A stretch of DNA of 56,850 nucleotides from a virus (Duplodnaviria; Caudoviricetes). The stretch is taken from positions 1 to 56,850 of the IMG/VR virus record IMGVR_UViG_3300020156_000033. One strand, given 5' to 3'. Positions 1,646 to 49,802 of this stretch are shown here, piece by piece. A model generated the notes under the pieces. That model made no database searches, had not been told where the DNA came from, and saw nothing but the letters and a program-made list of their open reading frames with translations. The stretch's first letter is position 1. Every line of letters starts with the position of its first letter. A program made the translations under genes and the position numbers.

Positions 1646-1672
1646 ACGCAACCGGAGAAAGAGGTAGGGCAG

Positions 1673-7665: not shown

Positions 7666-7684
7666 GCGAGTAGAGAGGTAGGGC

Positions 7685-8083
7685 ATGGACAGCACCAAGA
7701 GCATCTACGAGAAGGCGGCGGCCGCCGCCGACGCTTCGGCGGAGCACTTCCGCACCGAGTGCCTTCAGTACAACAAGGACACGATGACGCCCAACGCACG
7801 GCAGCGGGCGGAGCTGTCGGACCACCTGGGCGAGTCGTTCGAGCGGCTGTCGGCCGTGTTCACGGCGGCGGGTGACGGCATGTACCGCAGCTACGAGGCG
7901 GTGGCCGAGGTCGGCGCCGCCCTGGAGGTGCTGGCCGCCTTCCTCGGGCAGTCCCCGCTGCTGCCCCGGGAGCAGGAGTCGGCGCCGCTGGCCGAGAAGG
8001 TGGAACTGAGTGTGCTCCGCCGGACCCGGGATGCGCTGGAGGGCATGCGGGTCCCCGACGGCGACGGTCCGAGCGCGGCCTAG
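7685..8083 (+). CDS. Hypothetical protein
   Basis: RBS GAGAGGTAGGGC. Confidence 0.75.
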   Translation: MDSTKSIYEKAAAAADASAEHFRTECLQYNKDTMTPNARQRAELSDHLGESFERLSAVFTAAGDGMYRSYEAVAEVGAALEVLAAFLGQSPLLPREQESAPLAEKVELSVLRRTRDALEGMRVPDGDGPSAA

Positions 8084-14682: not shown

Positions 14683-16962
14683 ATGCAGATGAACACGGGT
14701 GAATTCTTCGATCTGCTGTTCGGGGACCTCGACGGCTGGGCCGTGGTGTGCTCGTTCCCGGGAGGGTTCTTCTCCCCCAAGGCGGGACCGACGGACCAGG
14801 AGTGGTTCGCCTGGCCCGAGGAGCGGGCGCAGATGATCGCCTACGTCCTCCAGAGGACCGACAACGACCTCTACACGGTGCCGACCCTCTACCGCACCAA
14901 GGGCAGCCGCAAGGCCGCCAACGCCCATCTGGGGCGCACGGTCTACGCCGACGCCGACAGCGCTCCGCCGGAGGCGTTCAAGCTGAAGCCGACGGCGGTG
15001 GTGGCCACGTCGACGGGCAGGACCCAGTGCTACTGGGTGGTCGATGACTGCCGGGACCCCGACCTGCTGTCGCAGTACGGGCGGGCGCTGGCCCACATGC
15101 ACCGCAACGACGGGTGCGACACCGGCGGCTGGGACATCGGCCAGCTGCTGCGCATCCCCGGCACCACCAACAACAAGCCGGACCTGGTCGCCCCCTTCCG
15201 GGTCGAAGTCGTTGAGCACACTTCCGGATTGGTCTATACCTCTTCGGTGTTTTCCAAGGTCTACGACCCGAACTCGGTGAAGTCCGCTGCGGTCCAGCTC
15301 GACGTCGAGATGCCGGACGAGTCCAGACTGCCGACCTTCGAGGAGGCCCGGGGTGTGCTCGTCGGTAGCTACGAGCTGCTGCGGTTGGTGGACGAGGCCG
15401 TCGTCAAAGGCGAGAAGGGCGGGGCAGGGGACCGCAGCGCGCGCATGTGGGCGCTGCTCAGCAACCTGTCCCGGATGGGCGTGGACCCGGGCACGGCCTT
15501 CGTGCTGGCCCGCAACGCCGGGTGCAACAAGTACCGCCAGGACGGCAGGCCCGAGGAGGAGCTGTGGGCCGAGGTCATGCGGGCCTACGGCGACCCCGAC
15601 AACCAGCCGGTGGTCTCCGACGCCGACGCCGCCAAGCTGGACCGCACCATCGCCCGGGAGAACAGGGCTCGCCAGCCGGTGGCCGCTGCGGTGCAGACCA
15701 CGCTGCTGCCCGCCCACTTCCTGTCCAAGGAGGAGCGGCCGCAGGTGCCCTACGACACGTTCGTGGACCGGTACCAGGCGTGGGGCTCGACGCGTACCGA
15801 CGCCGCTCCGCAGTACCTGCGGGCCGCCGCGCTCACGTGCATGTCGGCGGTCTACGGGGACTTCGGCAAGCCGCCCACCAAGTACGACTCGGGCGGCCTG
15901 AACCTGTGGTTCCTCATCCTGGGCGGCACCACCCGCAGCCGCAAATCGACGGTGCGCGGGATGATGGTCTACACCCTGGACGCCCTGTCCAACGACGGGT
16001 TCGTCTACGACATCGGGTCCAACGCCACGGCCGAGGGCCTGATGAACGAGCTGGCCGAGCGGCCGGGCTGGACGTCGGTGTTCCATCGGGACGAGGTCCA
16101 CGGCCTGCTGTACGAGGTCGGGGCCAAGAACTACATGGCGGGGTTCAAGGAGGCCCTGACCGAGCTGTACGACGGCCGGGTCCACGGCAAGCTGCGCGCC
16201 ACGGGCACGGTGAAGAAGACGGCGAGCACGCGGACCGTCTTCATCATGCTGATGGCGGGCGTCACCGAGCACGTGACCAAGGCGCTGACCGCCGCCGACT
16301 TCGCCTCGGGGTTCCTGGCCCGGTTCGTCTTCATCCACGCCGATCCGCCGCCGCGAACGCGGGAATCGGAGTGGATGGAGCAGGAGGAGGAGACGGTGGC
16401 CGCCGGTGGCGACACCGTGTTCGAGAGCTTGGTGGACGAGCTGCTGCTGGGCCGGTCTTTCTGGTCCGTCCAGACCACGCGCGGCGCCCAGTTGAAGATC
16501 GGGTTCGATGACATCGCCTGGAAGCGGCTGAACGAGTTCATCTGGGAGGCGGGCAACGCCGCCGAGGAGCACGAGCTGAGGGAGGTGCTGCAGCCCACCG
16601 TCGACCGCATGACGAAGTCGGTCATGAAGACCGCCATCCTCCTGGCGATGCACGAGAGCGAGTTGACGGTATCCTTGCGGCACGTGCTGAAGGCGGTGAG
16701 CCTGGCGGAGGAGTGGTACGGGCACCTGGTGACCGTGGCCACCAAGATCCGCCAGTCCTACTGGCTCAGGCGCCAAGACGACCTCATGGACATCATCGAG
16801 GAGTACGGCGGCCAGGTCAGCTGGAGCAAAGCCTACGCCAGGATGCGGAGGGACCTGCGTCCCCGGGAGTTCGGAGAGGTCGTGGATGCCCTGGTGATGG
16901 CGGGCAAGGCGATCCTCCGCCGACACGGGAACACGCAGGTCATCGAGAGTACGGGGAGGTAG
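14683..16962 (+). CDS. DNA primase (RepB-like AEP)-helicase fusion
   Basis: YADAD, TSTGRTQCYW, LLRIPGTTNNK; DRS domain; P-loop-like TTRSRKST, DEVHG, SGFLARF. Confidence 0.82.
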   Translation: MQMNTGEFFDLLFGDLDGWAVVCSFPGGFFSPKAGPTDQEWFAWPEERAQMIAYVLQRTDNDLYTVPTLYRTKGSRKAANAHLGRTVYADADSAPPEAFKLKPTAVVATSTGRTQCYWVVDDCRDPDLLSQYGRALAHMHRNDGCDTGGWDIGQLLRIPGTTNNKPDLVAPFRVEVVEHTSGLVYTSSVFSKVYDPNSVKSAAVQLDVEMPDESRLPTFEEARGVLVGSYELLRLVDEAVVKGEKGGAGDRSARMWALLSNLSRMGVDPGTAFVLARNAGCNKYRQDGRPEEELWAEVMRAYGDPDNQPVVSDADAAKLDRTIARENRARQPVAAAVQTTLLPAHFLSKEERPQVPYDTFVDRYQAWGSTRTDAAPQYLRAAALTCMSAVYGDFGKPPTKYDSGGLNLWFLILGGTTRSRKSTVRGMMVYTLDALSNDGFVYDIGSNATAEGLMNELAERPGWTSVFHRDEVHGLLYEVGAKNYMAGFKEALTELYDGRVHGKLRATGTVKKTASTRTVFIMLMAGVTEHVTKALTAADFASGFLARFVFIHADPPPRTRESEWMEQEEETVAAGGDTVFESLVDELLLGRSFWSVQTTRGAQLKIGFDDIAWKRLNEFIWEAGNAAEEHELREVLQPTVDRMTKSVMKTAILLAMHESELTVSLRHVLKAVSLAEEWYGHLVTVATKIRQSYWLRRQDDLMDIIEEYGGQVSWSKAYARMRRDLRPREFGEVVDALVMAGKAILRRHGNTQVIESTGR

Positions 16963-16967
16963 GGCGG

Positions 16968-37536: not shown

Positions 37537-37552
37537 AGCTTATCGCCGTTAT

Positions 37553-37795: not shown

Positions 37796-37797
37796 CG

Positions 37798-38364: not shown

Positions 38365-38408
38365 GGTTCCTCCTCATTCGCGTGGCCACGCGATACGCAA
38401 GTGTATCG

Positions 38409-39262: not shown

Positions 39263-39701
39263 CGGGGTGCTCCTCCACGTCCACGTCGCACAGGATGTTG
39301 CGCAGCCAGGGGTTGGAGGAGTTCAGCGGGTTGCGCACGCGGAAGACGAAGGTCTCCAGATCGGGGTCGTCCGGGCAGTCGAGCACACGCACGACGGTGC
39401 CGATCGGAATGGGGGGCGTGTCCTTCAGCGGGATCTGGAGGCGCAGGGCGTGCATCGTGATCGGGTCGTCGGCGGCCACACGCGAGCGCGCGCGCCAGTC
39501 CTTGTTCGGCTGGCAGCGCGCCTGCCCGGTCCACAGGACCTCGACGGGCGCCGTCACCTCACCGGTGTCGGGGTCCCACACCGCCGCGCCGTCGTCGGAC
39601 AGCGACAGCCGCACCGTGGCCAGCATGAACCCGGCGGGCACCGAGCGGTGGTGCCTGGTCCACCGCGCGTCCAGCGACGGCCGCAGGTTGAGCGGGCTCA
39701 T
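39249..39701 (-). CDS. Head closure / head-tail connector (DUF6093-like)
   Basis: WDPDTG...WTGQAR-Q...LQIP...DPDL. Confidence 0.7.
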   Translation of the reverse strand: MSPLNLRPSLDARWTRHHRSVPAGFMLATVRLSLSDDGAAVWDPDTGEVTAPVEVLWTGQARCQPNKDWRARSRVAADDPITMHALRLQIPLKDTPPIPIGTVVRVLDCPDDPDLETFVFRVRNPLNSSNPWLRNILCDVDVEEHPDGQG

Positions 39702-40078
39702 CGCGGACCGCACAGGGGCGGGCGCGGGTAGAACGGCACGACCTCGAAGAACGCCTCGCCCTCGGCCGCGTCGTCCTCCTCGGCCTGGTCCCACAGGTCG
39801 TTGGCCCGCGCGCGCAGCGCCTGCGCGACCTTGGACCCGTCGGTCTGAAGGTCCTCGGTCTTGATGACCTTCGAGATCAGCGCCTCGGACACGGCGATGG
39901 CGCCGATCGCCGAGGACGCCGCGCGCTTGACGCTGCCGCTGTAGATGTCGAGCAGCGCCTGGAGGTGGTCGTCGGGGAAGATGTAGGACGCTTCGCCGTC
40001 GCCCTCCCAGTCCACTTCCTCGGTGTCGGGGATGAGCGCGCGGACCTTGCCGAGGTCGGTGCTGAAGTCCACTGCCAC
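39698..40078 (-). CDS. Head-tail adaptor
   Basis: GKVRALIPD...IF-D..L...AA; follows the capsid gene. Confidence 0.75.
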   Translation of the reverse strand: MAVDFSTDLGKVRALIPDTEEVDWEGDGEASYIFPDDHLQALLDIYSGSVKRAASSAIGAIAVSEALISKVIKTEDLQTDGSKVAQALRARANDLWDQAEEDDAAEGEAFFEVVPFYPRPPLCGPR

Positions 40079-40139
40079 GTGTCTGCCCTCCTGGGTCGCT
40101 GCCAGCTTAGACCAGCACGCGTGTGCTGGTCATGGCATG

Positions 40140-40225
40140 AGAAGAGGGGCCGCCCACGGGAAGGTGAAAGCGGCCCCTCTGGTCTCACCACCAGCTGCAC
40201 CAGGAGATCAACAGCCCTCTCCTGG
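40140..40225 (-). ncRNA. Candidate sRNA or structured capsid 3' UTR; terminator loop antisense to CCACGGGAAGG
   Basis: -10-like TACCCT (40230-40235), hairpin CCAGGAG/CTCCTGG, 11-bp stem 40143-40153/40170-40180 with loop UUUCACCUUCCCGUGG. Confidence 0.6.
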
Positions 40226-40260
40226 GGCAAGGGTACTACATGCGGAGCCGGATACCGCTA

Positions 40261-41391
40261 TCAGGTGCCCGAGCCGTTGGACACGATCGTCGGGGACGGG
40301 TCCAGGCCCTTGGCCCCGACGAAGTGCCGGACGCGGTACTGGACGTCGTCGTTGAGGAACGACCCCTGGAGCGGGTCGATGTCCCCGCCGCCCAGAGCGC
40401 GGCCCTGGTCGCCGGAGATCCGCAGCTCAGGGGTCTCGTGCCCGCGCAGGAACCCGGTGACCAGCGCGGTCCGGCCGCTGATCCCGGTCTCGCCCCCGGA
40501 GGGGACCAGGTACCAGGTGGTGTCCGCGTTGACCGAGGTGTCCAGGACCGGCAGCCAGTACTCGACCACGACCGACACCGGGAAGGGCATCCCGGGGTTG
40601 GTGCGGGTGGTCTCGACGGAGCCGTCGGGCAGCGTCACCTCGCGGGTGACCTCCACCGCGTTCAGGATCTCCTGGGCGACGATCTGGAGCGACGGCGGGA
40701 CCACCAGGGCGAAGTTGCGGACGGTGACCGGACGGCCGTTGACCCGGCGGTCGGTGACCTGGCGCATCGCCTCGACCAGCGACTCCCGGGTGAGCGGCGG
40801 GTTGCCGTCCATCAGGTTGCCGTTGCTGGCGTTGAAGAACGCCGGGTTCGGGCCGGTGGTGGTGGCCAGCACACCCGCCGTCAGGATCTGCTCGGTCTGG
40901 CGGGCCAGCTCGGCCATGGCACCGGGCATCTGCTGGATGAGCTGGTACTCGTCGTTGATGAACGCTTCCATGCTGAAGGGGAAGCGGCCACCGTGCTTGC
41001 CGATCTGGTACTGCCCGCTCGCCGTGTCGTACTCGAAGACCGGGTACTCGGTCAGCTCGGGCACGCGCGGCAGCATGGTCATGCCGTTGGTGTCGCCCAG
41101 CGTCGGGGCGCCGCCGTTCACGGCGGGCAGCAGGCCGGTGTCCAGCCGGAACTCGCGCCAGGTCTGCGGCTTGAAGTCCGGGACGGCGACGCGCCGCGAG
41201 TACTGCGGCCAGGTGACGGGGAAGGCATCGTACTGCGCCCGGACCTCGTCCTGCGTGATGCGGCGGAACAGCTCCGGGAACTCGTCGGAGGTGGAGACCG
41301 CCTCCTTGAGCCGGGCCTGCGCAACCCAGTCGCCGCGCATGGCGGAAGCGAGGGTGCGCGCGGTGCCCAGCACCTTCTCAGACGTGATCAT
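40261..41391 (-). CDS. Major capsid protein
   Basis: STSDEFP, VPDFKP, VPELTEYP, K-G..F-FS-EAFIND, LVVPPSL, YRVRH; RBS GAGAGG. Confidence 0.9.
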   Translation of the reverse strand: MITSEKVLGTARTLASAMRGDWVAQARLKEAVSTSDEFPELFRRITQDEVRAQYDAFPVTWPQYSRRVAVPDFKPQTWREFRLDTGLLPAVNGGAPTLGDTNGMTMLPRVPELTEYPVFEYDTASGQYQIGKHGGRFPFSMEAFINDEYQLIQQMPGAMAELARQTEQILTAGVLATTTGPNPAFFNASNGNLMDGNPPLTRESLVEAMRQVTDRRVNGRPVTVRNFALVVPPSLQIVAQEILNAVEVTREVTLPDGSVETTRTNPGMPFPVSVVVEYWLPVLDTSVNADTTWYLVPSGGETGISGRTALVTGFLRGHETPELRISGDQGRALGGGDIDPLQGSFLNDDVQYRVRHFVGAKGLDPSPTIVSNGSGT

Positions 41392-41421
41392 TCTCAATCC
41401 TCTCGTATGCAGTCGTCGCGA

Positions 41422-41817
41422 CTACGCGGCCGGGTCGGGCGACTGGCACACGCGGACGATGGTGCGGCCGTCCTTGGTCATCCCCAGCTTGTGGCCGAAC
41501 AGCTTGCCGCCGGTGGGGAGGGTACCGACCAGGGGGGCCTCGGTGCCGATGTAGACCTGCGCGCCGATGGCCAGCGCGTCACCACCGGTGATGGTGAAGG
41601 CCCACGCACCGTTGAGGGCGACGGAGGCGTAGCCCTCGTCGTTGAACCCCTGGTAGGTGAAGTCGGGGGCGTCGGGCGTGTCCTGGCTGGCCGTGGACCG
41701 GGTGGTCTGGGCCACGCCCACGATGGAGCCTACGCGCACGGGGTCGCCGCTCTCGGTGCCCTCGGGCACCGGCAGCGAGATGTAGGTGCCCTCCTTGAAG
41801 ACCTCGTTGCGCGCCAT
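41422..41817 (-). CDS. Capsid cement / decoration protein (DUF2190-like)
   Basis: MARNEVF...SGDPVRVG-IVGVA-T. Confidence 0.75.
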   Translation of the reverse strand: MARNEVFKEGTYISLPVPEGTESGDPVRVGSIVGVAQTTRSTASQDTPDAPDFTYQGFNDEGYASVALNGAWAFTITGGDALAIGAQVYIGTEAPLVGTLPTGGKLFGHKLGMTKDGRTIVRVCQSPDPAA

Positions 41818-42926
41818 TACTTGCTACCTCCGAAGATGGTGTTGTTGAGCGAGCGCAGCTGGGTCGCGTACCCGTTGGGTCCGCCCAGCGCGCCGGACTC
41901 GCGGAGCACACCACCCGGGGCGCGCGAGGTCAGCGACTCCTGGATCTCGTCCACCAGCGCCTGCTCGGCGGCGATGGCGGCGTCCAGGTCCTGGCCGGGC
42001 TTGTAGTCGTTGGCCAGCCGCTTGCGGCTGGCGGCGGGCAGGCCCGAGCCGTCGAGCTTGTCCACGACCTCGCCGTAGCTCAGCGCGGACGCGTCGGCGG
42101 AGGCGTCCTTCTCCTCGCCGCCGGTGTCCCCGGCCTTCTCCTCGCCGCCGCCGGTGGCGACGTCGTTGGGACCCTGGCCCGGCGCCTGGTGCATCGGCCC
42201 CGTGCTGGCCGACGGCGTCGCGGCGCGGTCCTCGGCCTCGGTCAGGCGCTTCTCCAGCGCTTCCATCTTCTGGGCCATCGAAGTCATGGTCTCGGACACC
42301 GAGGTGATCATCTCACCCAGCCGGTTCATGCCCACCTTGTCCGATTCCTTCAGCTCGAAGATCGGCGCGGCCTTGGGCGCGGACTCCCCGCCACCCTGGC
42401 GAGCGCTTTCGGCGATGCTCACAAGTTTCCCTCCTGCACCCGCTCGGGTAACGACGTCGACTGACAGACCTTCTACGATCTCGGTCACCACGAGGAGCCC
42501 GGTGTCGGGGTTCTCCTCGGTGATCCCGATGGCGCGGATGGACAGGCCGACGGTATCGGGTAGTTGGTTCTCGGACAGATCCGCGACCAGGTCGCGGGCC
42601 TCGCCCAGGAACTGCACGGTGGCGAAGAGCCCGTGGCCGTCGGCCCCGTTCTCATACACCGCGTCCTCCAGGAGCACACCCGCCAGGTCGCGCACGGAGC
42701 GCTCGGGGCGCTCCCACTCCTCGCTGCTGGTGGGGTGGTCCAGGTACATCTGCATTCCCTGGCGGAAGACCTTGGCCTCCGCCGCCTTCGCCAGCACCGC
42801 CGCCGGGTAGAACCCGGAACTGCCGCTGACGTCGGCCTCGATGATGAGCACACGCCACTTGCCCGCAGTGCTCCCCCGCTTCGCGGGGCGCGTGGCCTCT
42901 CTCAGTTCTGCGCGCACGGTGCCCAT
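41817..42926 (-). CDS. Capsid maturation protease-scaffold fusion
   Basis: GSSGFYP, YLDHP, RSVRDLAG, GLSIRA, SVDVVT-AGAGGK, coiled C-terminus. Confidence 0.82.
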   Translation of the reverse strand: MGTVRAELREATRPAKRGSTAGKWRVLIIEADVSGSSGFYPAAVLAKAAEAKVFRQGMQMYLDHPTSSEEWERPERSVRDLAGVLLEDAVYENGADGHGLFATVQFLGEARDLVADLSENQLPDTVGLSIRAIGITEENPDTGLLVVTEIVEGLSVDVVTRAGAGGKLVSIAESARQGGGESAPKAAPIFELKESDKVGMNRLGEMITSVSETMTSMAQKMEALEKRLTEAEDRAATPSASTGPMHQAPGQGPNDVATGGGEEKAGDTGGEEKDASADASALSYGEVVDKLDGSGLPAASRKRLANDYKPGQDLDAAIAAEQALVDEIQESLTSRAPGGVLRESGALGGPNGYATQLRSLNNTIFGGSK

Positions 42927-42946
42927 CGTCCTCCTCGTTCTCGGAA

Positions 42947-42979
42947 ATCATAGCGGTGTTACCAGGTTTTCGGTAACAC
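42947..42979 (-). promoter_or_regulatory. Late promoter candidate with upstream palindrome
   Basis: GTGTTACC-N8-GGTAACAC, 3 nt, then -10 TATGAT and RBS GAGGAGG. Confidence 0.55.
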
Positions 42980-42981
42980 GG

Positions 42982-44424
42982 TTAGTCCGTGTGTGCCTGC
43001 AACCCCTCGTCGCGGAGTTCGTGGTCGCCGTAGCTGGGCGGTTCCACCTGCGCCATGCCGTCCGCACCGGGGGCCGGAGCGGGCGGCGCGGGCTCGGGGG
43101 GCTCCTCCCTGTCGCTGTCGTAGTCCAGCGCGCGCAGCAGCATCGCGCGCACCTCCTCGGGATAGAGCATCCCCGTCCCGTCGGCCATGGTGATGGCCTG
43201 GATGAGGCGGTGCGTGGGCTCGGTGGTGACCGGCGGCCACACGACGTCCCACTCGAAGCCGAGCAGGTCGGCGATCTGGCGGCCCGCCGCGTCCCACAGG
43301 CGCTGGCGCGCCTTCATCGCCATGCCCGTCACCGGCTCCAGCGATTCGCTGTTGGCCGCGTTGCCCGAGGGGTCGCTGAGCATGACGGGCAGCGGCACCT
43401 CCAGCCCGGCGGCCACGAGCGCGGCCAGCGCCCGGCCCTCGTTGAAGTTCACCGAGGAGGAGTTCTTGCCGAGCGCCGACAGGTCCTGCCCGGCCCCGAG
43501 CACGGCCGTGTTGCCGACGTTGGCGTAGCCGCCGGTCATCGGGTCGCGCAGCGGCTGGTCGGCGATCTTGGACGCCACCGCCTTCTGCCCCTTGCCGGTC
43601 GCGCTGGTGACCTTCCACGCGTACTGCGCGTAGGACTTCAGCAGCTTCTTGCAATCCTCCAGGAACTCCTTGTACGCCTGGCTCCAGAAGATGACGGGGA
43701 AGACGTCGGGCAGGCCCCAGGTCCAGCCCGCGAGCTTGTTGGCCGACACGGTGACCACGACCTTGCTGTAGTCGACCGCGTCCCCGGCGATCGTCTTCGG
43801 CTTGTCGGCACCGTCGTCCTTGTAGCGGTCGTAGGAGGGGTACCACTCGCGCCGCTGGACCGCCTCGGGCGCGGCGGAGGGGTCGGCGAAGGGCCGGACT
43901 TCCTCGTTCCAGCTGCGCCGGTAGAACCACACGTCCTCGTCGTCGCCCGGAGCGGTGATCGTGGCCGTGAGCTGCCGGAACGGCAGTCGCTGGATCTTCT
44001 TGCGGGCGACGTCGACCAGGAAGGACACGTTGCCGTCGCCCGCCAGGCTGCGCTCCAGCTCGTACTGGGCCTGCGGCGAGGCGAGCACACGCACCAGGGA
44101 GGGGGTGCGCCACGCGTCGCCCTCGGCCCCGATCTGCACGCCCTCGCCCCAGATGTAGGACGTGCGCACGGCCACGGCCCGCTTGATCAGGGGGTTCACC
44201 GTGATGAGCGCCCGGCAGGTCTCGGCCGTGCTCTGGATGTTGGACAGCGGTATCTGGTCGTCGCCCTCGGTCAGCCCGCCCAGCGGCTTCCACCCGAGGT
44301 CGTCCACCGCGAGCGCGACCTGCGTCATGAGGTCGGAGTTGCGCTCCTCCAGCAGCTCCATCTGGGTCTCCAGGTGCCGGACCGTCTCGGTCAGCTGCGT
44401 GTGCTCGGTGGCCTCGGTGGTCAT
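42982..44424 (-). CDS. Portal protein
   Basis: ATG 44424 after GGAGAGG; NPLIKRAV..R..YIWG, DGN-F, WGLPD; position after terL. Confidence 0.85.
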   Translation of the reverse strand: MTTEATEHTQLTETVRHLETQMELLEERNSDLMTQVALAVDDLGWKPLGGLTEGDDQIPLSNIQSTAETCRALITVNPLIKRAVAVRTSYIWGEGVQIGAEGDAWRTPSLVRVLASPQAQYELERSLAGDGNVSFLVDVARKKIQRLPFRQLTATITAPGDDEDVWFYRRSWNEEVRPFADPSAAPEAVQRREWYPSYDRYKDDGADKPKTIAGDAVDYSKVVVTVSANKLAGWTWGLPDVFPVIFWSQAYKEFLEDCKKLLKSYAQYAWKVTSATGKGQKAVASKIADQPLRDPMTGGYANVGNTAVLGAGQDLSALGKNSSSVNFNEGRALAALVAAGLEVPLPVMLSDPSGNAANSESLEPVTGMAMKARQRLWDAAGRQIADLLGFEWDVVWPPVTTEPTHRLIQAITMADGTGMLYPEEVRAMLLRALDYDSDREEPPEPAPPAPAPGADGMAQVEPPSYGDHELRDEGLQAHTD

Positions 44425-44469
44425 CGCCTCTCCCGTGTGCTCGGTTCCGGCCAGTCTAGTCCCGGGCAT

Positions 44470-44570
44470 GAAGAAGGCCCGGTCGCTGTTCCCCCTTCAG
44501 CGACCGGGCCTTCACCGGAGTTGGCCTCCGATACCCCCACCTGTACAGACTCTCGTCGTATGTACCGGTA
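44470..44570 (-). ncRNA. Candidate sRNA 2 (about 100 nt)
   Basis: -10 TATCAT 44576-44581, two hairpins, perfect 16-bp terminator stem 44473-44513. Confidence 0.5.
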
Positions 44571-44607
44571 GGGACATGATACCACCCTACCCGAGCGGTA
44601 GGTGAAG

Positions 44608-44733
44608 ATGCGGATGGCCCCGGCGGGTGCCAGCCCGCCGGGGCCGGGAACGGACCTGACTGGAGAGGTAGAGCCGTTCCGATGGAGGACCCCTGGCGCT
44701 GGAGGTAGGGCAGTACCGGAGCGCCGGAGCTTC
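44608..44733 (-). ncRNA. Candidate sRNA 1 with anti-RBS loops
   Basis: -10 TATACT 44739-44744; loops CUGCCCUACCUCC and CUACCUCUCCA; 12-bp terminal stem 44616-44645. Confidence 0.65.
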
Positions 44734-44772
44734 CCACGAGTATAGCAGTAACCGGGTGGTAGCATGGAGTCA

Positions 44773-44824
44773 GAAGGCCCGCGCCCCGGTCCTCCTCAGA
44801 GGAACCCCCTTGGCGCGGGCCTTC
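44773..44824 (-). terminator. Terminator after terL
   Basis: 13-bp inverted repeat GAAGGCCCGCGCC/GGCGCGGGCCTTC. Confidence 0.7.
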
Positions 44825-44835
44825 ACTGTGCCCGG

Positions 44836-47301
44836 CTACAGCGGGCTGATGCGGTTCTCCATCTGGTCGGCCATCATCTCCTGGAGCGCCTGAAGCAGCT
44901 GCTCCGGACTGGCCTGTACCACGTCGCCGGGCTGGAGCCCCAGCGGCGGGCGGTCGGCGCAGGCGTAGACGAAGGCGTCGGCGAAGTCGGGCGAGGACCC
45001 CCCGGTGCGCTTGCGGATGTCGTCCTTGGACTCGATGTAGAGACGGTCGTTGGAGTACTTGAACCGCACGCCCTGAAGCTCCTCGTACAGCTGGTCGTGC
45101 ATGACGGCCTTCTGCACCCCGTTGAGCATGTACTGCCGCGTGCGGTCGTACCACAGTGCGCGGGCGTTGCCATAGCCCGCCACCGGGGTGCCGTCCTCCT
45201 CGGCGGCCCGCGCCGATCCGATCATCTCGATGACGGTCAGCCCCCGGTAGCGGGTCGGTTCGGCCGCGATCATGGCCATGGCCGCATCGACCACACCGGC
45301 GCCCAGGCCGACGGCGTCCACGCGGACCTCGACCTCCTCGTCGTCGTCGGTGCGCAGGTCGCAGGCGATGCCGAGCACACGCCGCGCGGAACTCGTGGTG
45401 TCCATGCCCTTCCAGGAGTCCTGCACCCAGGCGACCGACCCGCGCCGAGCACACACCGCCGTGGTGTCGTCGCCGTAGCGCGCGGGGTCCACGCCCAGGA
45501 ACAGCGGCCCCTCGCCCCGCTCGTCGGCCAGGTCGAAGCCGTTGGCCAGCACCTGCGCCCCGAACAGCGAGGACACCGCGTTGTCGGGGAAGTCCGCCAG
45601 CACCTTGGACTGGTAGCGGGGGTCGTCCTCGCCCCACGCCTTGCGGCGGTCCTCCACCCACTCCCGCTGCACGAGCACGTCGCGCAGCAGCGCGGGCACC
45701 TGCTCGTCGGTGAAGTTCGGGGTGTCGAACGCCGAGATGGTGATGCGGTTCCACAGGTCGGCCTGCGACTCCGACGTGCAGACCCTGCCGAACTCGGTGT
45801 CGGGGTCGTCGGGGTTGCCGATGGCCAGGATGCGGGCGTCGCCGGTGGTGGTGATCGCCTCGACCGCCGTCCACAGGGCGGGGGCCACGCCGCACGCCTC
45901 ATCGATCACGACGAGGACGTAGCGGCGGTGGATGCCCTGGAAGGCGTGGATGTTGTGGTCGGAGGGCTTGCGCCCGAACCCGATGATCTCGCCGTTGTCC
46001 AGCTTCCACTCGTCGGACTGGGTGACGTAGCCGACCAGCGGTGTGAAGCGCTCGTCGGACTCGGCGCGGGCGGAGGCCCGGCGGTGGTGCTTGCGGATCT
46101 CCTCCCACAGGATCTTGTTCACCTGGGCGTAGGTCGGCGCGGTGGAGACCACGATCGCCTCGCCGGGCGGGTGGGTGTCCAGCCACCAGGCCGAGGCCAC
46201 CGAGGCGATCATCGAGTTGTGCGTGGGCACCATGTCGGCGCCCGCGAGGTAGAGGTGGTTGTCCGAGGCCACCTGCACGCACTGCGTGGGCACCGACGGC
46301 ACCGGCCGCACCTCGCGGATGACCCGGCCGGTCAGGCGGCTGCGGCCGTTCTTGCCCCCGTTGCGCTTCTCCCAGCGCTCCAGGGCGTGCTCGGCCTCGG
46401 CCGGGAAGGGGTTGTCCACCGTGCGCAGCACCACCGCGTAGTCGCCGGTCGGCTCCCCCATGCGGTACAGCGGAACCGGACCGCCCGGCACCACCCGGTG
46501 CCCCAGGGTGCGGGCCAGCTCCGCCGCGCGCTCGGCGGCGGCCAGCTTGGGCAGCGCGAGCAGCACCGCGCCGTCGGCGCGGACCGAGCCCCAGGCAGCA
46601 CACACCCCGGTGAAGGCCGCCTCGCGCTGCTTGAGGGCGGCGCGCATCAGGTGCGAGGGCAGCGCGGCCTGGACGCCCATCTCGTAGGGGTCCTGGACGA
46701 AGCCGGTCTCCGGGCCCTGCAGCGGCCGCGCCAGCGGCACCGCGTGGTTGTAGTCGCCCCGGTGGTTCTTCAGGCTGGCCGCGATCTCGGCCGTGGTGCG
46801 GACCTCGGCCGCGTCCCAGTGGTCGCGCCAGTCCACCTCGGTGCCCGCGCGGTGGGCGGCGGTGCGGATGCGCTGCCGGGTGCGGGCGTCGATGGTGGCC
46901 CACTCGTGGTTCCACCCGCACCGCACCGCCGAGCCGTCATCGAAGACGACCTCGGCCACGTCGTGGCGGAACACCTGGGACTTGGCCACCACCAGCACCG
47001 GGCCGCCGTGCTCGCCCAGCAGGTGGTCCCCCACCGACACCCGCCCCATCGACGTCCAGCCGGTGGGGGTCGGCAGCAGGGTGTCCAGCGGCAGGTCCTT
47101 GCCCGAGCCGTGGCAGGACTTCACCGCCGTGCGCTTGTGGTCGCGCACGCTCTGAAGCACCTCGACCTGCTTGGACCAGGCGTGGACCTGGAGCCGGTCG
47201 CGCGCCCAGCCCCCCGGGTCCATGCGGTACCCGCTGGACTTGGCCTCGGCGGCGAGGCGCCGCAGCGCCCCCTCCACCACCTCGGCGTCGAAGCCGCCCA
47301 T
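44836..47301 (-). CDS. terL: Terminase large subunit, intein-containing
   Basis: KSCHGSGK|S Walker A, VVIDEA, IGNP, LGVDPARYGDD, SPDFADA. Confidence 0.93.
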   Translation of the reverse strand: MGGFDAEVVEGALRRLAAEAKSSGYRMDPGGWARDRLQVHAWSKQVEVLQSVRDHKRTAVKSCHGSGKDLPLDTLLPTPTGWTSMGRVSVGDHLLGEHGGPVLVVAKSQVFRHDVAEVVFDDGSAVRCGWNHEWATIDARTRQRIRTAAHRAGTEVDWRDHWDAAEVRTTAEIAASLKNHRGDYNHAVPLARPLQGPETGFVQDPYEMGVQAALPSHLMRAALKQREAAFTGVCAAWGSVRADGAVLLALPKLAAAERAAELARTLGHRVVPGGPVPLYRMGEPTGDYAVVLRTVDNPFPAEAEHALERWEKRNGGKNGRSRLTGRVIREVRPVPSVPTQCVQVASDNHLYLAGADMVPTHNSMIASVASAWWLDTHPPGEAIVVSTAPTYAQVNKILWEEIRKHHRRASARAESDERFTPLVGYVTQSDEWKLDNGEIIGFGRKPSDHNIHAFQGIHRRYVLVVIDEACGVAPALWTAVEAITTTGDARILAIGNPDDPDTEFGRVCTSESQADLWNRITISAFDTPNFTDEQVPALLRDVLVQREWVEDRRKAWGEDDPRYQSKVLADFPDNAVSSLFGAQVLANGFDLADERGEGPLFLGVDPARYGDDTTAVCARRGSVAWVQDSWKGMDTTSSARRVLGIACDLRTDDDEEVEVRVDAVGLGAGVVDAAMAMIAAEPTRYRGLTVIEMIGSARAAEEDGTPVAGYGNARALWYDRTRQYMLNGVQKAVMHDQLYEELQGVRFKYSNDRLYIESKDDIRKRTGGSSPDFADAFVYACADRPPLGLQPGDVVQASPEQLLQALQEMMADQMENRISPL
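46216..47097 (-). mobile_element. Class 3 intein (294 aa) with degenerate LAGLIDADG remnant
   Basis: DLPLDTLLPTPTGW...HEW...QCVQV...VPTHN|S; WCT triplet; removal restores GSGKS. Confidence 0.88.
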
Positions 47302-47304
47302 GTC

Positions 47305-47511
47305 CTACCCCGCCTTCTTCTTCAGGCGGTCGCGGACGCTCCGCACCACCGCCTCGTCGGCCTGCACCATGCGCAGCCAGTCGGCCAGCTCCCCGGCGCT
47401 ACCGGCGTTGCTGGCCAGCACCAGCACCATCTTCTCCATCTCGCGGCGGGCCTCCTCCTCCGAAGACCTCGGCACCGTGACCTGGCTGCCGCGCCCCATG
47501 AAGTCAACCAT
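47305..47511 (-). CDS. Small hypothetical protein
   Basis: Tight packing, RBS GGAG. Confidence 0.65.
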   Translation of the reverse strand: MVDFMGRGSQVTVPRSSEEEARREMEKMVLVLASNAGSAGELADWLRMVQADEAVVRSVRDRLKKKAG

Positions 47512-47722
47512 CCTGCTCCTCCCGGAACACCGCGCCGTCGGCGCGCCCCTGCTCCCGGGCGGGCATCAGCCCCTTCCGGCTGGACCCCAGGGTCTCGACC
47601 CGGATGTAGGTGAGCCACATCCCGTCGGTGTTCTCCACCAGCACCCGCCGCAGCTCGTCCTCGCTCGGCGGTTCTCCCGGCCCCGTGTGGTAGTACCGCA
47701 CCACCAGCTCGTACGCGCCCAT
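47504..47722 (-). CDS. Small hypothetical protein
   Basis: Tight packing, codon bias. Confidence 0.65.
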   Translation of the reverse strand: MGAYELVVRYYHTGPGEPPSEDELRRVLVENTDGMWLTYIRVETLGSSRKGLMPAREQGRADGAVFREEQDG

Positions 47723-48331
47723 CTACTTCGCCCCCTTCGACGTCCGCGTGCTGTTGGCCGTCATCGCCTCGGTCGCCACCTCGGCGAAGCGCGCCGCCCA
47801 GCCGTCGGCGATCTCCCGGCGGATGCGCACCGCCTCTTCGTCACCGCGCGGCAGACGGGCCAGGCGGTCCTCCACGAAGGACAGCATCTGGTCCCGCACG
47901 CCCGCGAGCATGGTGTGGACCATGTCCTTCTGCACCCGGGTCAGCTCCACCTGCTCGTCGCGCAGCCGGTCCTTCTTCAGTTCCATCAGCTCGGTGATGG
48001 TGGTCAGGGTGTCGATCAGGTTCTTGGTCTGCTTGCCCTCGGTGATCAGGTCGCCCGACATCACCTGGGGCCACAGGGCGTTGACGATCGACTCCAGGCG
48101 CACGAGCTGGAGCATGCGCATCTCCAACGCCGAGGACCGGTTGTAGTTGCTGAGCAGGTAGTCGTTGACGACCATCGCCGCATACGCGGGGTCGATGCCC
48201 GTCTCCTTCTCGATCTGGTACCAGTTCAGGCCCCGCGCCCGCAGGCCGACCAGCATGTCCACCAGCTCACGCTCGCGCATCCGCCGGTGGGCCTGCTCCT
48301 GGGGGTCCTCGTAGACCTCGACCTCACTCAC
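47723..48331 (-). CDS. Terminase small subunit candidate
   Basis: N-terminal HTH LRARGLNWYQI, RLE...LWP...GD; near terL. Confidence 0.65.
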   Translation of the reverse strand: MSEVEVYEDPQEQAHRRMRERELVDMLVGLRARGLNWYQIEKETGIDPAYAAMVVNDYLLSNYNRSSALEMRMLQLVRLESIVNALWPQVMSGDLITEGKQTKNLIDTLTTITELMELKKDRLRDEQVELTRVQKDMVHTMLAGVRDQMLSFVEDRLARLPRGDEEAVRIRREIADGWAARFAEVATEAMTANSTRTSKGAK

Positions 48332-48599
48332 CCGTGTCCACCTCCTCGTACTCCTCGACCATGCCGTCCTCGCTCTCCACGATCCATCCGGCCAGTTCGC
48401 GGGAGTCGTGCCGGATGGCCAGGTGGTCGGTCAGGGCCCCGGTGCCCCCGGACTCCTCCTCGTGGCCGGGGGAGTGCCACCCGCACACCGGGCACCGCGC
48501 CTCGTAGCGCTGGCGGGTGCGCGCGGTGCGGGTGGCCCAGCGGTGCTCGTCCAGCGGTGACGCCTTCTCGGGCAGCCGCACCGCGTACCCCCGCCTCAC
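48324..48599 (-). CDS. Small zinc-binding protein
   Basis: CPVCGW...DHLAIRH. Confidence 0.65.
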   Translation of the reverse strand: MRRGYAVRLPEKASPLDEHRWATRTARTRQRYEARCPVCGWHSPGHEEESGGTGALTDHLAIRHDSRELAGWIVESEDGMVEEYEEVDTGE

Positions 48600-48847
48600 G
48601 CCTCGCCCCTGCGGGTTTCGGCGGACGTGTCGATCATGTAAACGATGTGCTTGGAAACCTTCTTGACGATGTGCTCACCGTTCCTGGACAGCAGCAGGTG
48701 GATGAGCGGGTCGGAGTCCCTGTCGATGTCGGCCACCCGGTACCACAACTTCTCGGAATCCCCCGGAACACTGAGCGCGATCCGGTCGCCGACCCACAGG
48801 CTCTGCGCGAACACGAAGTCGGTCGCGGTACCAGCGGTCTCGTCCAT
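48596..48847 (-). CDS. Hypothetical protein
   Basis: Coupled ORF. Confidence 0.65.
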   Translation of the reverse strand: MDETAGTATDFVFAQSLWVGDRIALSVPGDSEKLWYRVADIDRDSDPLIHLLLSRNGEHIVKKVSKHIVYMIDTSAETRRGEA

Positions 48848-48848
48848 C

Positions 48849-48977
48849 TCAGAACCCCATCTCGTCGGTGTTGTGCTCGGTGAGCACGTGGATGTCGTAG
48901 GCGGTGGCGGCCCCCGGGCCGGAGCAGGTCCAGGTGCATCCGGGGTAGCCGCACCGCACGTCGGGCTGGGCGCTCAC
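48849..48977 (-). CDS. 42-aa C2H2-type microprotein
   Basis: GTGA coupling; CGYPGC...HVLTEH. Confidence 0.55.
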   Translation of the reverse strand: MSAQPDVRCGYPGCTWTCSGPGAATAYDIHVLTEHNTDEMGF

Positions 48978-49378
48978 GTGCCGCCCCCGATGCCGAGTTC
49001 GCGCTTACAGAGGGGGTGCGGCTTACGCACCGGCTCGGGCCCCAGGGGCAGCGGGCCACGCGTGTCCGCGCACTCCAGATCGGAGGCGCGGCACTCCATG
49101 CTCCGGCCCGGCCAGCCCGACTCTCCCGGCGCGTCGATCACCGACATCAGCGGCCGGACGGTCACCGAATGGCGGTCGGACTGCGACGTCGGGCCGGGGG
49201 TGAAGAACTCCCGGAGGAGCGGGACCCGCTGCACGAGCCCGCGCTCCCACTTGAGCACTTCCGGGTGCCACCAGGCGGCGTCATCCGCCCGGCGCAATTC
49301 CCGGTCTACCCGCTCCAGCGCGCTCCGCGCGGCCTCCATGACGGCGCCGCCCAGCTTGTCGTTCGGCCCCTTGGTCAC
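48974..49378 (-). CDS. Hypothetical protein
   Basis: GTGA coupling at 49378. Confidence 0.6.
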   Translation of the reverse strand: MTKGPNDKLGGAVMEAARSALERVDRELRRADDAAWWHPEVLKWERGLVQRVPLLREFFTPGPTSQSDRHSVTVRPLMSVIDAPGESGWPGRSMECRASDLECADTRGPLPLGPEPVRKPHPLCKRELGIGGGT

Positions 49379-49707
49379 TGCGGCCTCCCGATCCCCAGCT
49401 CGCGCTCCAGTTCGGCGATCCGCTTCTCCTGCTCGCGGATGCGCCTGTCCTTCTCCCGGGGGTCGTGCTCGACCGCCGTCTTCTCCACCGCGCCGCCGAA
49501 GGCGCGGACGGGCAGCACCACGGGCCAGAAGAAGAGGGTCGCCGTGGTGTCCTCCTTCACGCGCGCCAGGACGTACTTCTCCTTGGTGTACTCCTTGCGC
49601 GCGGCCGCCCACGCACGGGGCAGGTCGCGCCTGGCCAGGTACCAGCCGATGGAGAAGTAGGCCGCCAGGTAGACGAGCACACCCACCAGGACGTGGACCA
49701 CGGTCAC
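49375..49707 (-). CDS. Membrane protein with coiled-coil tail
   Basis: TM segments; RIAELERELGI. Confidence 0.7.
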   Translation of the reverse strand: MTVVHVLVGVLVYLAAYFSIGWYLARRDLPRAWAAARKEYTKEKYVLARVKEDTTATLFFWPVVLPVRAFGGAVEKTAVEHDPREKDRRIREQEKRIAELERELGIGRPQ

Positions 49708-49802
49708 CGGTCCCACCGCCCCAGCAGCGCGGAGACGAAGACGCCGATGAAGACGCCGCAGGCCAGCGTGCTGAGCACAAGGCCGACGAGTTCGGTGCTC
49801 AT
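49704..49802 (-). CDS. 32-aa membrane peptide
   Basis: ATGA/GTGA coupling; LVGLVLSTLACGVFIGVFVSALL. Confidence 0.55.
   Translation of the reverse strand: MSTELVGLVLSTLACGVFIGVFVSALLGRWDR

What the first reader, a model, noticed from the sequence alone, without database searches (positions are those of the whole stretch)
44608..44744. Candidate sRNA whose loops are antisense to a second RBS box, GAGGTAGGGC
Seen: after the terL terminator come -10 TATACT, hairpin 1 (loop containing CUGCCCUACCUCC), hairpin 2 (loop containing CUACCUCUCCA) and a 12-bp terminal stem, with no ORF. Loop 1 pairs with the RBS of gene 1673 (12 bp, 1661-1672), gene 7685 (11 bp, 7675-7685) and the HTH gene 16968 (11 bp plus G-U, from 16955). 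Loop 2 matches 7673-7681, 5238-5246 and 2406-2413. Inference: a second seed/address pair that with the 40154 and 37511 loops forms a multi-channel antisense system; it could also hit host GGAGG sites.
Basis: partly seen in the sequence, partly recalled or inferred. Interest (0 to 1): 0.88.

Follow-up and report, generated by a model that had tools for sequence, protein, structure and literature searches.

The report
Hairpin loop antisense to start-site box
A non-coding, hairpin-rich spacer between a soil phage's terminase and portal genes carries, in one hairpin loop, the exact mirror image of a short box that sits on the ribosome-binding sites of three early genes, so it may be an RNA switch that silences them, but no expression data exist.

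Summary
The sequence features are real and at the stated coordinates. A 411-nt spacer with no coding signal lies between terL and the portal gene. It holds TATACT, two hairpins and a 12-bp GC stem.

Loop 1 is the exact reverse complement of GAGGTAGGGC. That 10-mer sits 0-2 nt before the ATG of genes 1673, 7685 and 16968 (an HTH protein).

- **Box:** it behaves like a Start-Associated Sequence (SAS) of actinophages. It has 5 exact copies, all on the + strand, against about 0.15 expected.
- **Loop 1:** shuffled late intergenic regions (IGRs) contain the box in 85 of 20,000 trials. A second box (CACGGGAAGG) lies likewise in the terminator loop at 40155. Both together occur in 1 of 20,000.
- **Loop 2:** its matches are at chance level (P=0.47).
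- **Targets:** gene 7685 ranks only 7th of 91.
- **Signals:** the promoter is a bare -10, and the terminal stem has no U tract.
- **Strand and expression:** both strands fold equally well, and no RNA data exist.
- **Conservation:** relatives lack the element. A 98%-identical variant keeps hairpin 2 through one G-C to A-U double change.
- **Parallel:** Cluster K1 mycobacteriophages carry their single reverse SAS as the apical loop of a conserved hairpin, in the gap where late transcription starts.

Verdict: a plausible but unproven anti-SAS antisense RNA (about 0.42).

The parts
44773..44824 (-). Terminator-like hairpin directly after the terL stop (44838-44836). It has a 13-bp GC-rich outer stem, GAAGGCCCGCGCC/GGCGCGGGCCUUC.
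   Evidence: Sequence and fold of the whole IGR. The consensus terminator scan does not call it because it has no U tract.
44739..44744 (-). -10-like hexamer TATACT, with no recognisable -35.
   Evidence: one of 4 TANNNT in the IGR. One search finds 0 promoter-like sites.
44682..44737 (-). Hairpin 1. Its loop region (44719-44701) holds CUGCCCUACCUCC (44713-44701), the exact reverse complement of box B plus flanks.
   Evidence: CUGCCC and UCC are unpaired; UACC is paired in a 4-bp inner helix.
44647..44680 (-). Hairpin 2: a 7-bp stem GGAACGG/CCGUUCC and a loop with CUCUACCUCUCCA.
   Evidence: The basal pair G44680-C44647 is A-U in a 98%-identical natural variant. The loop's target matches are at chance level.
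44616..44645 (-). 12-bp GC stem with a 6-nt loop (terminal stem), followed by AUCCGCAUCUUC.
   Evidence: One contig of run X2 lacks 2 nt in its loop at 44627. No U tract.
44565..44606 (-). Further copies of the CCUACC/GGUAGG core: CACCUACC..GGGUAGGGUG (imperfect palindrome), TATCAT (44581-44576) and CCCUACC (44573-44567). GGGUAGGGUGGUAUC can pair with the loop-1 seed region in the full-IGR minimum free energy (MFE) fold.
   Evidence: 4 of the window's 29 GGTAGG/CCTACC copies lie within about 145 nt. Also.
44468..44513 (-). Second strong terminator-like hairpin with a 16-bp stem, followed by UUCAU. TAGACT (44458-44453) and the portal RBS and ATG (44424) follow.
1661..1672 (+). Box B at the RBS of gene 1673 (211 aa, no family match). 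12 nt are complementary to loop 1.
   Evidence: -27.0 kcal/mol, rank 2 of 91.
7675..7685 (+). Box B at the RBS of gene 7685 (132 aa, no family match). 11 nt are complementary.
   Evidence: -22.7 kcal/mol, rank 7 of 91.
16955..16967 (+). Box B at the RBS of gene 16968 (HTH DNA-binding protein). 13 pairs form, including one G-U.
   Evidence: PF13518 HTH_28, 2.7e-06; -28.6 kcal/mol, rank 1 of 91.
40140..40179 (-). Companion element: the terminator hairpin after the major capsid gene. Its loop UUUCACCUUCCCGUGG is the reverse complement of box A (CACGGGAAGG).

Best explanation
The 411-nt terL-portal spacer is a non-coding, hairpin-rich insert in the late (minus-strand) operon of an uncultured high-GC actinophage.

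I read hairpin 1 as an 'anti-box' RNA. Its loop presents CUGCCCUACCUCC, a mimic of the 16S anti-SD extended by CUGCCCU. This loop base-pairs across the Shine-Dalgarno region and spacer of three early plus-strand genes. Those genes share the start-associated box GAGGTAGGGC. Pairing would occlude their ribosome-binding sites once late transcripts accumulate.

The RNA may be a short transcript (TATACT to the 12-bp stem, about 120 nt). At least as likely, it is a stable hairpin fragment of, or simply part of, the late polycistronic RNA. The capsid terminator loop at 40155 would do the same for the box-A genes (DNA polymerase, Sak4-like protein and others).

- **Shown:** the anatomy, the exact complementarity, and the non-random co-occurrence with repeated boxes.
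- **Inferred:** transcription, strand, pairing in vivo and any effect on translation.
For: **The box is real.**
- GAGGTAGGGC occurs exactly 5 times, all on the + strand. Three copies lie 0-2 nt before an ATG.
- With up to 1 mismatch there are 12 copies against 5.05 expected, and 0 of 100 shuffles reach 12.
- In a 4.7-Mb Nocardiopsis MAG that holds one of the closest portal relatives (50% aa), the exact box occurs 12 times. This predicts about 0.15 copies in the window.

**The anti-copy in a late IGR is unlikely by chance.**
- It appears in 85 of 20,000 dinucleotide shuffles in this orientation, and in 180 of 20,000 in either orientation.
- An independent second case exists in the same genome. 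Box A (8 exact + strand copies of ACGGGAAGGA, none on the minus strand) has CACGGGAAGG in the loop of the capsid terminator.
- Both boxes together appear in 1 of 20,000 shuffles.

**Loop-1 duplexes are strong.** 16968 gives -28.6 and 1673 gives -27.0 kcal/mol, ranks 1 and 2 of 91 TIRs, against a median of -14.5. Against 500 composition-shuffled loops, P(best)=0.024 and P(third)=0.002.

**Structure.**
- z is -4.58.
- In a 98%-identical variant, 2 of the 8 IGR substitutions convert the G-C basal pair of hairpin 2 to A-U, and the fold stays identical. The chance that any two of 8 substitutions hit partners is about 0.05.

**The CCUACC core is clustered.** 4 of the window's 29 copies lie within about 145 nt.

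**Independent parallel in Cluster K1 mycobacteriophages.**
- In Anaya the only reverse-orientation SAS (1 of 17 hits) forms the 10-nt apical loop of a hairpin in a 385-nt non-coding gap.
- The hairpin is conserved with compensatory and G-U pairs. The loop is kept in 9 of 12 sampled phages.
- In Adephagia, late transcription is reported to begin in that same gap (PMC11373665, passage; coordinates).
Against: - **No expression data.** No listed sequencing run is RNA, so transcription and strand are untested.
- **Strand is open.** The + strand folds as well: -78.0 kcal/mol, z -3.58.
- **Weak signals.** The promoter is only a TANNNT, and the terminal stem lacks a U tract.
- **The seed is half-sequestered**. 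The full-IGR MFE fold pairs it with a downstream GGGUAGGGUGGUAUC.
- **Loop 2 is at chance** (P=0.47), and 7685 ranks 7th.
- **Generic short matches are common.** A 12-nt match has E=1.1. Stretch-based enrichment is not significant, and the flipped-strand control is as high.
- **The first shuffle test was inflated.** One search counted overlapping positions and TIRs that share a box.
- **Not conserved.**
  - No DNA relatives in three collections.
  - The nearest phages (portal 43-50% aa) lack both boxes.
  - Two relatives (G001, G002) have their own TIR boxes, almost all with no reverse copy anywhere. The one exception is a 10-mer in G002 with a single opposite-strand copy at 42901, which I did not examine.
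- **SAS phages can do without an anti-SAS.**
  - AnnaSerena has no reverse copy at up to 2 mismatches.
  - SirPhilip keeps 15 SAS but has an unrelated loop.
Confidence: 0.42

Rival explanations
1. The spacer is a purely cis-acting set of hairpins in the late operon. They would act as terminators or attenuators, RNase processing sites, or 3'-end stabilisers that set the terL:portal expression ratio. They may have arrived as a moron-like insert. The complementarity of loop 1 to box B would then be fortuitous.
For: - Three of the five hairpins are long GC stems placed right after a stop codon or before the next RBS.
- The terL-portal junction varies widely among relatives, from about 100 nt to 3.3 kb.
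- Relatives lack the element.
- Short exact matches are common in this 69% GC genome: a 12-mer has E=1.1, and 13-14-mers occur elsewhere.
- The stretch-based test is not significant.
- Loop 2 is at chance.
- The one compensatory change supports structure only, not trans pairing.
Against: - It must accept as coincidence that the two multi-copy RBS boxes of the genome both reappear, exact and in antisense orientation, in late IGRs. This happens in 1 of 20,000 shuffles.
- Both copies sit in hairpin loops rather than stems.
- It does not explain the CCUACC clustering.
Confidence: 0.28
2. The boxes are asymmetric double-stranded DNA sites for a phage regulator, for example the HTH protein of gene 16968, whose own start carries box B. 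The copies in the late region would be further operator sites. The GGTAGGG cluster and palindrome at 44565-44606 would form a regulatory region for portal and late transcription.
For: - All 5 box-B copies and all box-A copies keep the same orientation on the + strand, whatever the local gene direction.
- Five CCTACC/GGTAGG-type cores cluster within about 145 nt, including the imperfect palindrome CACCTACC-N5-GGGTAGGGTG.
- For Cluster K, the authors favoured DNA-binding proteins for the ESAS repeats and later placed promoters in them (PMC3203893 and PMC11373665, passages).
- Both strands fold equally, so RNA structure does not single out a strand.
Against: - A DNA site has no reason to sit in the loop between inverted repeats at two separate loci.
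- The boxes sit at RBS distance from ATG (0-2 nt after the 10-mer), which fits an RNA or translation role.
- Spacings of the cores (about 37, 70 and 30 nt) show no helical phasing.
- No binding data exist.
Confidence: 0.15
3. The functional strand is the + strand. An RNA antisense to the late operon would display box-like GGAGGUAGGGCAG sequences in loops, as a decoy for whatever factor recognises the boxes or for ribosomes.
For: - The + strand folds into the same three hairpins at -78.0 kcal/mol, z -3.58.
- The boxes would then be in sense form like the RBS copies.
Against: - No start codon follows the box at RBS distance on the + strand.
- No + strand genes or promoter-like site lie nearby.
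- The outer helices of hairpin 1 use G-U pairs on the minus strand, which become A-C mismatches on the + strand. This is my reading of the fold.
Confidence: 0.05

Closest known systems
Start-Associated Sequences (SAS/ESAS) of Cluster K mycobacteriophages and Cluster EF Microbacterium phages. This applies to the target boxes.
   Same: - Short asymmetric motifs at the RBS position a few nt before ATG.
- More conserved than an SD needs to be.
- One orientation only.
- Confined to non-structural genes.
- Often preceded by inverted repeats.
- The function is still called unknown.

Sources: PMC3203893, PMC7302621, PMC11373665 and PMC12699233, passages read. Box A (CGGGAAGGAAC) even resembles the EF consensus GGGAAAGGACCCC.
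   Different: - The sequences differ.
- Two distinct boxes occur in one genome.
- Box B has only 3 RBS copies, against 10-19 in published cases.
- The phage is unrelated at the DNA level.
- The antisense copy in a hairpin loop is not discussed in the passages I read. [quoted passage not shown]
Bacterial sRNAs with pyrimidine/C-rich loops that pair with SD regions: 6C/B11 of Actinobacteria, sX13 of Xanthomonas and RsaE of Firmicutes. Their mechanisms are recalled from memory. Only the title and abstract of a B11 paper were seen, in the listing.
   Same: Two or three stem-loops expose C/U-rich loops complementary to G-rich RBS sequences of several mRNAs, with a terminal GC stem.
   Different: - Not a member. 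Rfam scores are far below threshold: sX13 19.2 bits against 50. The 6C match scores 19.9 against 47 and lies on the other strand at the terL terminator.
- Here the seed is extended to 11-13 nt, specific for a phage box.
- The element is phage-encoded and would target the phage's own early genes.
Phage antisense regulators of own genes, such as the P1/P7 c4 RNA, lambda OOP and P22 sar (recalled, not checked in any call).
   Same: A small structured phage RNA, in the c4 case processed from a longer transcript, has loops that pair with and occlude an RBS region of phage mRNA.
   Different: - Those act on one neighbouring or overlapping target.
- Here three, or with box A about ten, dispersed genes on the opposite arm would be addressed through a shared box.
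- No sequence or family relation was tested beyond Rfam.
Reverse-orientation SAS hairpin of Cluster K1/K5 mycobacteriophages (Anaya 59799-59929; Adephagia 58611-58742).
   Same: A long non-coding gap begins with a terminator and is followed by GC hairpins. One hairpin has an apical loop that is the reverse complement of the phage's own start-associated box. The gap lies at the onset of late transcription.
   Different: - Not homologous in sequence.
- It lies on the same strand as its putative targets.
- It has a single box.
- The loop is not kept in 3 of 12 sampled Cluster K phages that still carry SAS.

Membership tests
Rfam families (all 4227, including 6C RF01066 and sX13 RF02232) | Covariance-model score at or above the family's gathering threshold. 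| tested here: not met
   0 matches in the window at gathering score; the best match in 44380-44880 is BjrC80 at 30.5 bits against 80. sX13 scores 19.2 against 50, and 6C scores 19.9 against 47 on the + strand at 44756-44828.
tRNA / tmRNA | Cloverleaf detected by ARAGORN. | tested here: not met
   0 genes in the window.
Free-standing sRNA gene (promoter + terminator) | Sigma-70/HrdB-type promoter with -35 and -10. | tested here: not met
   0 promoter-like sites in 44300-44950. Only TATACT with CCATGC at -35 distance. The scan is uninformative for this phage in general: 1 site against 1.0 expected in 37000-56850.
Free-standing sRNA gene (promoter + terminator) | Intrinsic terminator: GC stem followed by a U tract. 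| tested here: inconclusive
   A 12-bp GC stem is present. There is no U tract, and one search finds 0 terminators. From general knowledge, U-poor terminators are common in Actinobacteria.
Free-standing sRNA gene (promoter + terminator) | Detected transcript of defined ends. | not testable with these tools
   no RNA run is listed. laid DNA contigs only.
Trans-acting antisense RNA with loop seed | Seed in an unpaired loop and complementary to target RBSs beyond chance. | tested here: inconclusive
   - Loop 1: P(best)=0.024 against shuffled loops. 9 of 13 seed nt are unpaired and 4 are paired.
- Box-specific shuffles: 85 of 20,000.
- The stretch-based test is not significant.
- Loop 2: P=0.47.
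Trans-acting antisense RNA with loop seed | Co-variation of seed and targets, or conservation among relatives. | tested here: not met
   No homologous IGR was found in any collection. Relatives lack the boxes. The 98% variant has loop 1 unchanged, but its targets could not be read.
Start-Associated Sequence (box B, the target) | Conserved motif of 10 nt or more at RBS position within a few nt of the start codon, in one orientation, on non-structural genes. | tested here: met
   three exact copies lie 0-2 nt before ATG of + strand early-arm genes, and no minus-strand copy exists.
Start-Associated Sequence (box B, the target) | About 10-19 copies per genome, conserved across a phage cluster (as published). 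| tested here: not met
   Only 3 RBS copies, plus 2 near-variants GAGGAAGGGC. The box is absent from the 4 related phage records. Box A, with 8-10 copies, meets the number.

The most novel reading that the evidence does not exclude
Start-associated sequences are addresses for phage-encoded antisense loops. Hairpins embedded in, or released from, late transcripts would expose an 'anti-SAS' loop. That loop would pair with the SAS-type boxes on early-gene ribosome-binding sites and shut those genes off at the early-to-late switch.

The window would hold two such address/loop pairs: box B with loop 44713-44701, and box A with the loop at 40155. Cluster K1/K5 mycobacteriophages would hold one, at the place where their late transcription starts.

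This would give a mechanism for part of the SAS function, which has been unexplained since 2011.
Probability: 0.25. Interest if true: 0.85.

Novelty: new variant of a known kind. Interest (0 to 1): 0.6.

Why it matters
SAS motifs were described in 2011 and are still called functionally undefined in 2024-2025 papers. The 2011 paper explicitly leaves open whether they bind a host- or phage-encoded RNA or protein.

An exact antisense copy of such a box in a hairpin loop now appears in two unrelated phage lineages. In both it is tied to late transcription units. This turns the open question into a directly testable hypothesis, and Adephagia and Anaya in M. smegmatis are a tractable system for it.

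If confirmed, it would be a phage-internal, sequence-addressed translational shut-off of early genes by late RNA. If wrong, the element is an ordinary stack of terminator hairpins.

Tried and rejected
**Known RNA families and tRNAs.** None matched.

**Coding potential.** There is no GC3 signal in any frame. The 114-aa and 47-aa ORFs are flat.

**Homologous IGRs.**
- blastn against phages found nothing.
- An exact 22-mer scan of viral contigs found nothing.
- A protein-guided scan of metagenome contigs found no relative.
- An exact 18-mer scan of metagenome contigs gave 19 hits. 0 of 19 aligned to the window by blastn, so I rejected them as chance.

**Protein-guided relatives.** Synteny is kept, but terL-portal spacing is variable, and the closest relatives have no long spacer after the capsid gene. 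No alignment of the element was possible, so I built no covariance model.

**Sequencing runs.** No RNA holder is listed.

**Whole-sRNA duplexfold against TIRs.** Rejected as meaningless because it allows giant interior loops. Shuffles scored better. Replaced by the loop-only test.

**First shuffle test.** It gave 0 of 300, but it counted overlapping positions and TIRs that share a box. The stretch-based repeat was not significant. I rely on the box-specific test.

**A third 11-nt match at 26025.** It lies in an unstructured region (z=0.53), so I treat it as chance.

**Transposed early-IGR fragment.** No similarity extends beyond 12 nt.

**Promoter scans.** They are uninformative for this phage.

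**Generality of anti-SAS.** It is absent in AnnaSerena, in SirPhilip's loop and in relatives G001 and G002, so I do not claim it is universal.

**Literature.** The term 'anti-SAS' gave no relevant paper among the 10 best-ranked that one search listed of 398. Passages of four SAS papers mention no antisense partner. Figures S3/S4 and the tables of PMC3203893, and Table S3 of PMC12699233, may list the reverse sites.

Full report
**Context.**
- The window is a 56,850-bp IMG/VR virus record of about 69% GC.
- GC3 profiling shows + strand genes from 1 to about 20 kb. This is the replication/early arm, with DNA polymerase A at 17446, a Sak4-like AAA_24 protein at 13312 and an HTH protein at 16968.
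- Minus-strand genes run from about 20.5 to 53.6 kb and include the structural genes.
- The ORF ending at 44836 matches actinophage terminases at about 51% aa.
- The ORF starting at 44424 is a portal protein. Its homologues carry PF05136, and its best relatives are 50% identical or less.
- The finding lies in the 411-nt gap between these two genes.

**Anatomy (minus strand).**
- terL stop at 44838-44836.
- Hairpin with a 13-bp outer stem at 44824-44773.
- TATACT at 44744-44739.
- Hairpin 1 at 44737-44682, with CUGCCCUACCUCC at 44713-44701 in its loop region.
- Hairpin 2 at 44680-44647.
- 12-bp GC stem at 44645-44616.
- An imperfect palindrome CACCUACC/GGGUAGGGUG, then TATCAT (44581-44576) and CCCUACC (44573-44567).
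- A 16-bp terminator-like hairpin at 44513-44473, followed by UUCAU.
- TAGACT at 44458, then the portal RBS and ATG.
- Nothing is coding: GC at the three codon positions is 0.63-0.70 in every frame.
- The 151-nt segment folds at -73.3 kcal/mol (z -4.58, 0 of 200 shuffles). The whole IGR folds at -229.3 (z -5.93, 0 of 100).
- The + strand folds just as well (-78.0, z -3.58, 1 of 200), so energy does not pick the strand.
- The consensus scan finds no promoter and no intrinsic terminator here. It is uninformative for this phage in general.
- No Rfam family reaches threshold, and there is no tRNA.

**The targets.**
- GAGGTAGGGC occurs exactly five times, always on the + strand: at 1661, 7675, 16956, 38715 and 44702.
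- The first three lie 0-2 nt before the ATG of genes 1673, 7685 and 16968.
- The stated complementarities of 12 nt, 11 nt and 11 nt plus G-U are correct.
- A second and larger family, box A (C)ACGGGAAGGA, has 8 exact + strand copies and none on the minus strand. It often sits in a longer conserved leader, TAGCACACACCGACACGGGAAGGAACACCATG.
- These boxes have the defining properties of the Start-Associated Sequences described for Cluster K mycobacteriophages and Cluster EF Microbacterium phages. The role of those SAS is still unknown (passages).

**Is the loop/box relation more than chance?** The answer depends on the question asked.
- *Generic short matches are common.* A 12-nt match between this IGR and the window has E=1.1, and 13-14-nt matches to unrelated places exist.
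- *The uniform count is not enriched.* Counting independent complementary stretches between all IGR RNAs and opposite-strand TIRs gives 7 against 5.18 at k=10 (P=0.285) and 3 against 1.18 at k=11 (P=0.12). The flipped-strand controls give 12 and 3.
- *My earlier test was inflated.* One search gave 0 of 300 because of non-independent counting.
- *The box-specific question gives a different answer.*
  - The exact box appears 12 times in a 4.7-Mb related-host MAG, which predicts about 0.15 copies per window.
  - Dinucleotide shuffles of the 2,323 nt of late IGRs contain box B in antisense orientation in 85 of 20,000 trials.
  - They contain box A in 83 of 20,000, and both in 1 of 20,000. In either orientation the counts are 180, 283 and 2.
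- *Both real copies lie in hairpin loops.* These are loop 1 here and the loop of the capsid-gene terminator at 40155, UUUCACCUUCCCGUGG.
- *Loop-only duplex energies.*
  - 16968 (-28.6) and 1673 (-27.0) rank first and second of 91 TIRs.
  - 7685 (-22.7) ranks seventh.
  - Against 500 shuffled loops, P(best)=0.024 and P(third)=0.002.
  - Loop 2 is at chance: P=0.47 and 0.26.
- *The 11-mer count.* The loop-2 11-mer with up to 2 mismatches is frequent (37 against 12.07). It is a purine-rich SD-like word, and I give that count no weight.

**Natural variation.**
- No RNA run is listed.
- Contigs of run X3 give a variant that is 98.2% identical, with 21 differences in 1,198 nt. Eight of the differences lie in the IGR.
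- Two of them (+ strand 44680 C>T and 44647 G>A) are the two partners of the basal G-C pair of hairpin 2, giving A-U. The predicted structure is unchanged.
- The chance that any two of eight substitutions are partners is about 0.05.
- This supports selection on the hairpin, on either strand, and nothing more.
- Loop 1 is unchanged, but only about 0.25 changes would be expected there.
- The targets in the variant could not be read.

**Relatives.**
- The element has no detectable homologue.
- Phages with 43-50% identical portals keep the order terL ... portal, protease/scaffold and capsid. Their terL-portal spacing runs from about 100 nt to 3.3 kb, and they have no long spacer after the capsid gene.
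- Four full related records have no exact box A or B.
- Two of them (G001, G002) have their own repeated TIR 10-mers. Almost all of these have no reverse copy anywhere. One G002 10-mer has a single opposite-strand copy at 42901, which I did not examine.
- The box and anti-box arrangement is therefore lineage-specific, and boxes can exist without anti-boxes.

**An independent parallel.**
- Pope et al. (PMC3203893, passage) remarked that K1 phages each have one SAS in the opposite orientation, not at a gene start.
- In Anaya that site (59870-59882, 1 mismatch; 16 forward and 1 reverse hit, 0 in the reversed-pattern control) lies in a 385-nt unannotated gap.
- The site forms the 10-nt apical loop CCUCCUAUCC of a hairpin.
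- The segment is conserved in 133 Cluster K records.
- I aligned 12 of them: Anaya plus 11 taken from the 60 rows listed.
  - The hairpin shows 7 of 36 pairs with compensatory changes and many G-U pairs on the transcribed strand.
  - The loop is kept in 9 of 12.
  - Hammy and Amgine have other pyrimidine loops, and SirPhilip an unrelated one.
  - All three still carry 15-18 forward SAS.
- In Adephagia the same gap (58447-58878) is where 'late transcription appears to initiate' (PMC11373665, section 19 passage).
- AnnaSerena (Cluster EF) has no reverse SAS at up to 2 mismatches.
- The parallel is suggestive but not universal.

**Reading.**
- I commit to an antisense 'anti-box' RNA as the most likely single explanation (0.42). 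It may be an independent transcript or part of the late RNA.
- The rivals are cis-only terminator or processing hairpins with fortuitous complementarity (0.28), a DNA-level operator motif (0.15) and a + strand RNA (0.05).
- The remaining 0.10 is unassigned.
- The multi-channel idea is partly supported: two loop/box pairs hold up. The 37511 loop shares only 8-9 nt, and loop 2 is not supported.
- All functional steps (transcription, pairing, repression) are inference.

Noticed in passing
window 6654, 7059, 8186, 9164, 12526, 13297, 17426, 19623, 21277 (+): Box A, (C)ACGGGAAGGA, is an SAS-like motif before many early-arm starts. Four copies share a leader of more than 25 nt, TAGCACACACCGACACGGGAAGGAAC, that begins at the upstream stop codon. 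Several copies are preceded by GC inverted repeats, which is ESAS-like.
   Followed up: partly
window 40140-40179 (-): The terminator hairpin after the major capsid gene has a 16-nt loop, UUUCACCUUCCCGUGG. This loop is the reverse complement of box A, with 12 nt complementary to the TIR at 7056-7067.
   Followed up: partly
window 16968-17756 (+): The HTH gene's frame stays open for 310 nt into the DNA polymerase gene (start 17446). Its GC3 drops from above 0.9 to 0.54 after about 17418. Box A of the polymerase lies inside the HTH coding sequence. This may be an overlap, a missed frameshift or an assembly error.
   Followed up: no
window 51630-52103 and 52119-52553 (-): Two adjacent genes share an identical 21-nt start region, CTGAACAGGAGGTTCCCCCATG. 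They are probably tandem paralogues.
   Followed up: no
window 6598-6668 and about 6990-7075 (+): Two early-arm intergenic regions are paralogous: AGCCCTTCTGGAG..hairpin..GAAGAAGGAGTTCA..box A.
   Followed up: no
window 44836-47301 (-): The terL ORF is 821 aa, but terminase similarity covers only about the last 495 aa (query 28-520 of the last 521). I did not examine the N-terminal 300 aa.
   Followed up: no
window 53649-56061: A lower-GC stretch (0.63) with long gaps of 1,291 and 927 nt lies between the minus-strand and + strand arms. It probably holds regulatory or origin sequences.
   Followed up: no
window 44003 (run X3, record 9): The 98%-identical variant contig becomes unlike the window left of 44003, inside the portal gene. 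This is a mosaic breakpoint.
   Followed up: no
L014 922-1344 and 2377-3420: In one relative the terL match is split by about 1 kb, which suggests an insertion (intein, intron or homing endonuclease) in the terminase gene.
   Followed up: no
L148 1050-1108 (Anaya 59849-59907); Adephagia 58611-58742: The single reverse-orientation SAS of K1 mycobacteriophages is the apical loop of a conserved hairpin. It lies in the non-coding gap where late transcription is reported to start. Some records annotate a hypothetical protein over it.
   Followed up: partly
G001 and G002 (relatives' whole records): Related phages have their own repeated start-region 10-mers, for example GTGAGAAGTG at 6 starts in G002 and GAGAAGTGGA at 3-4 starts in both records. 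SAS-like boxes therefore seem widespread in this group, but with different sequences.
   Followed up: partly
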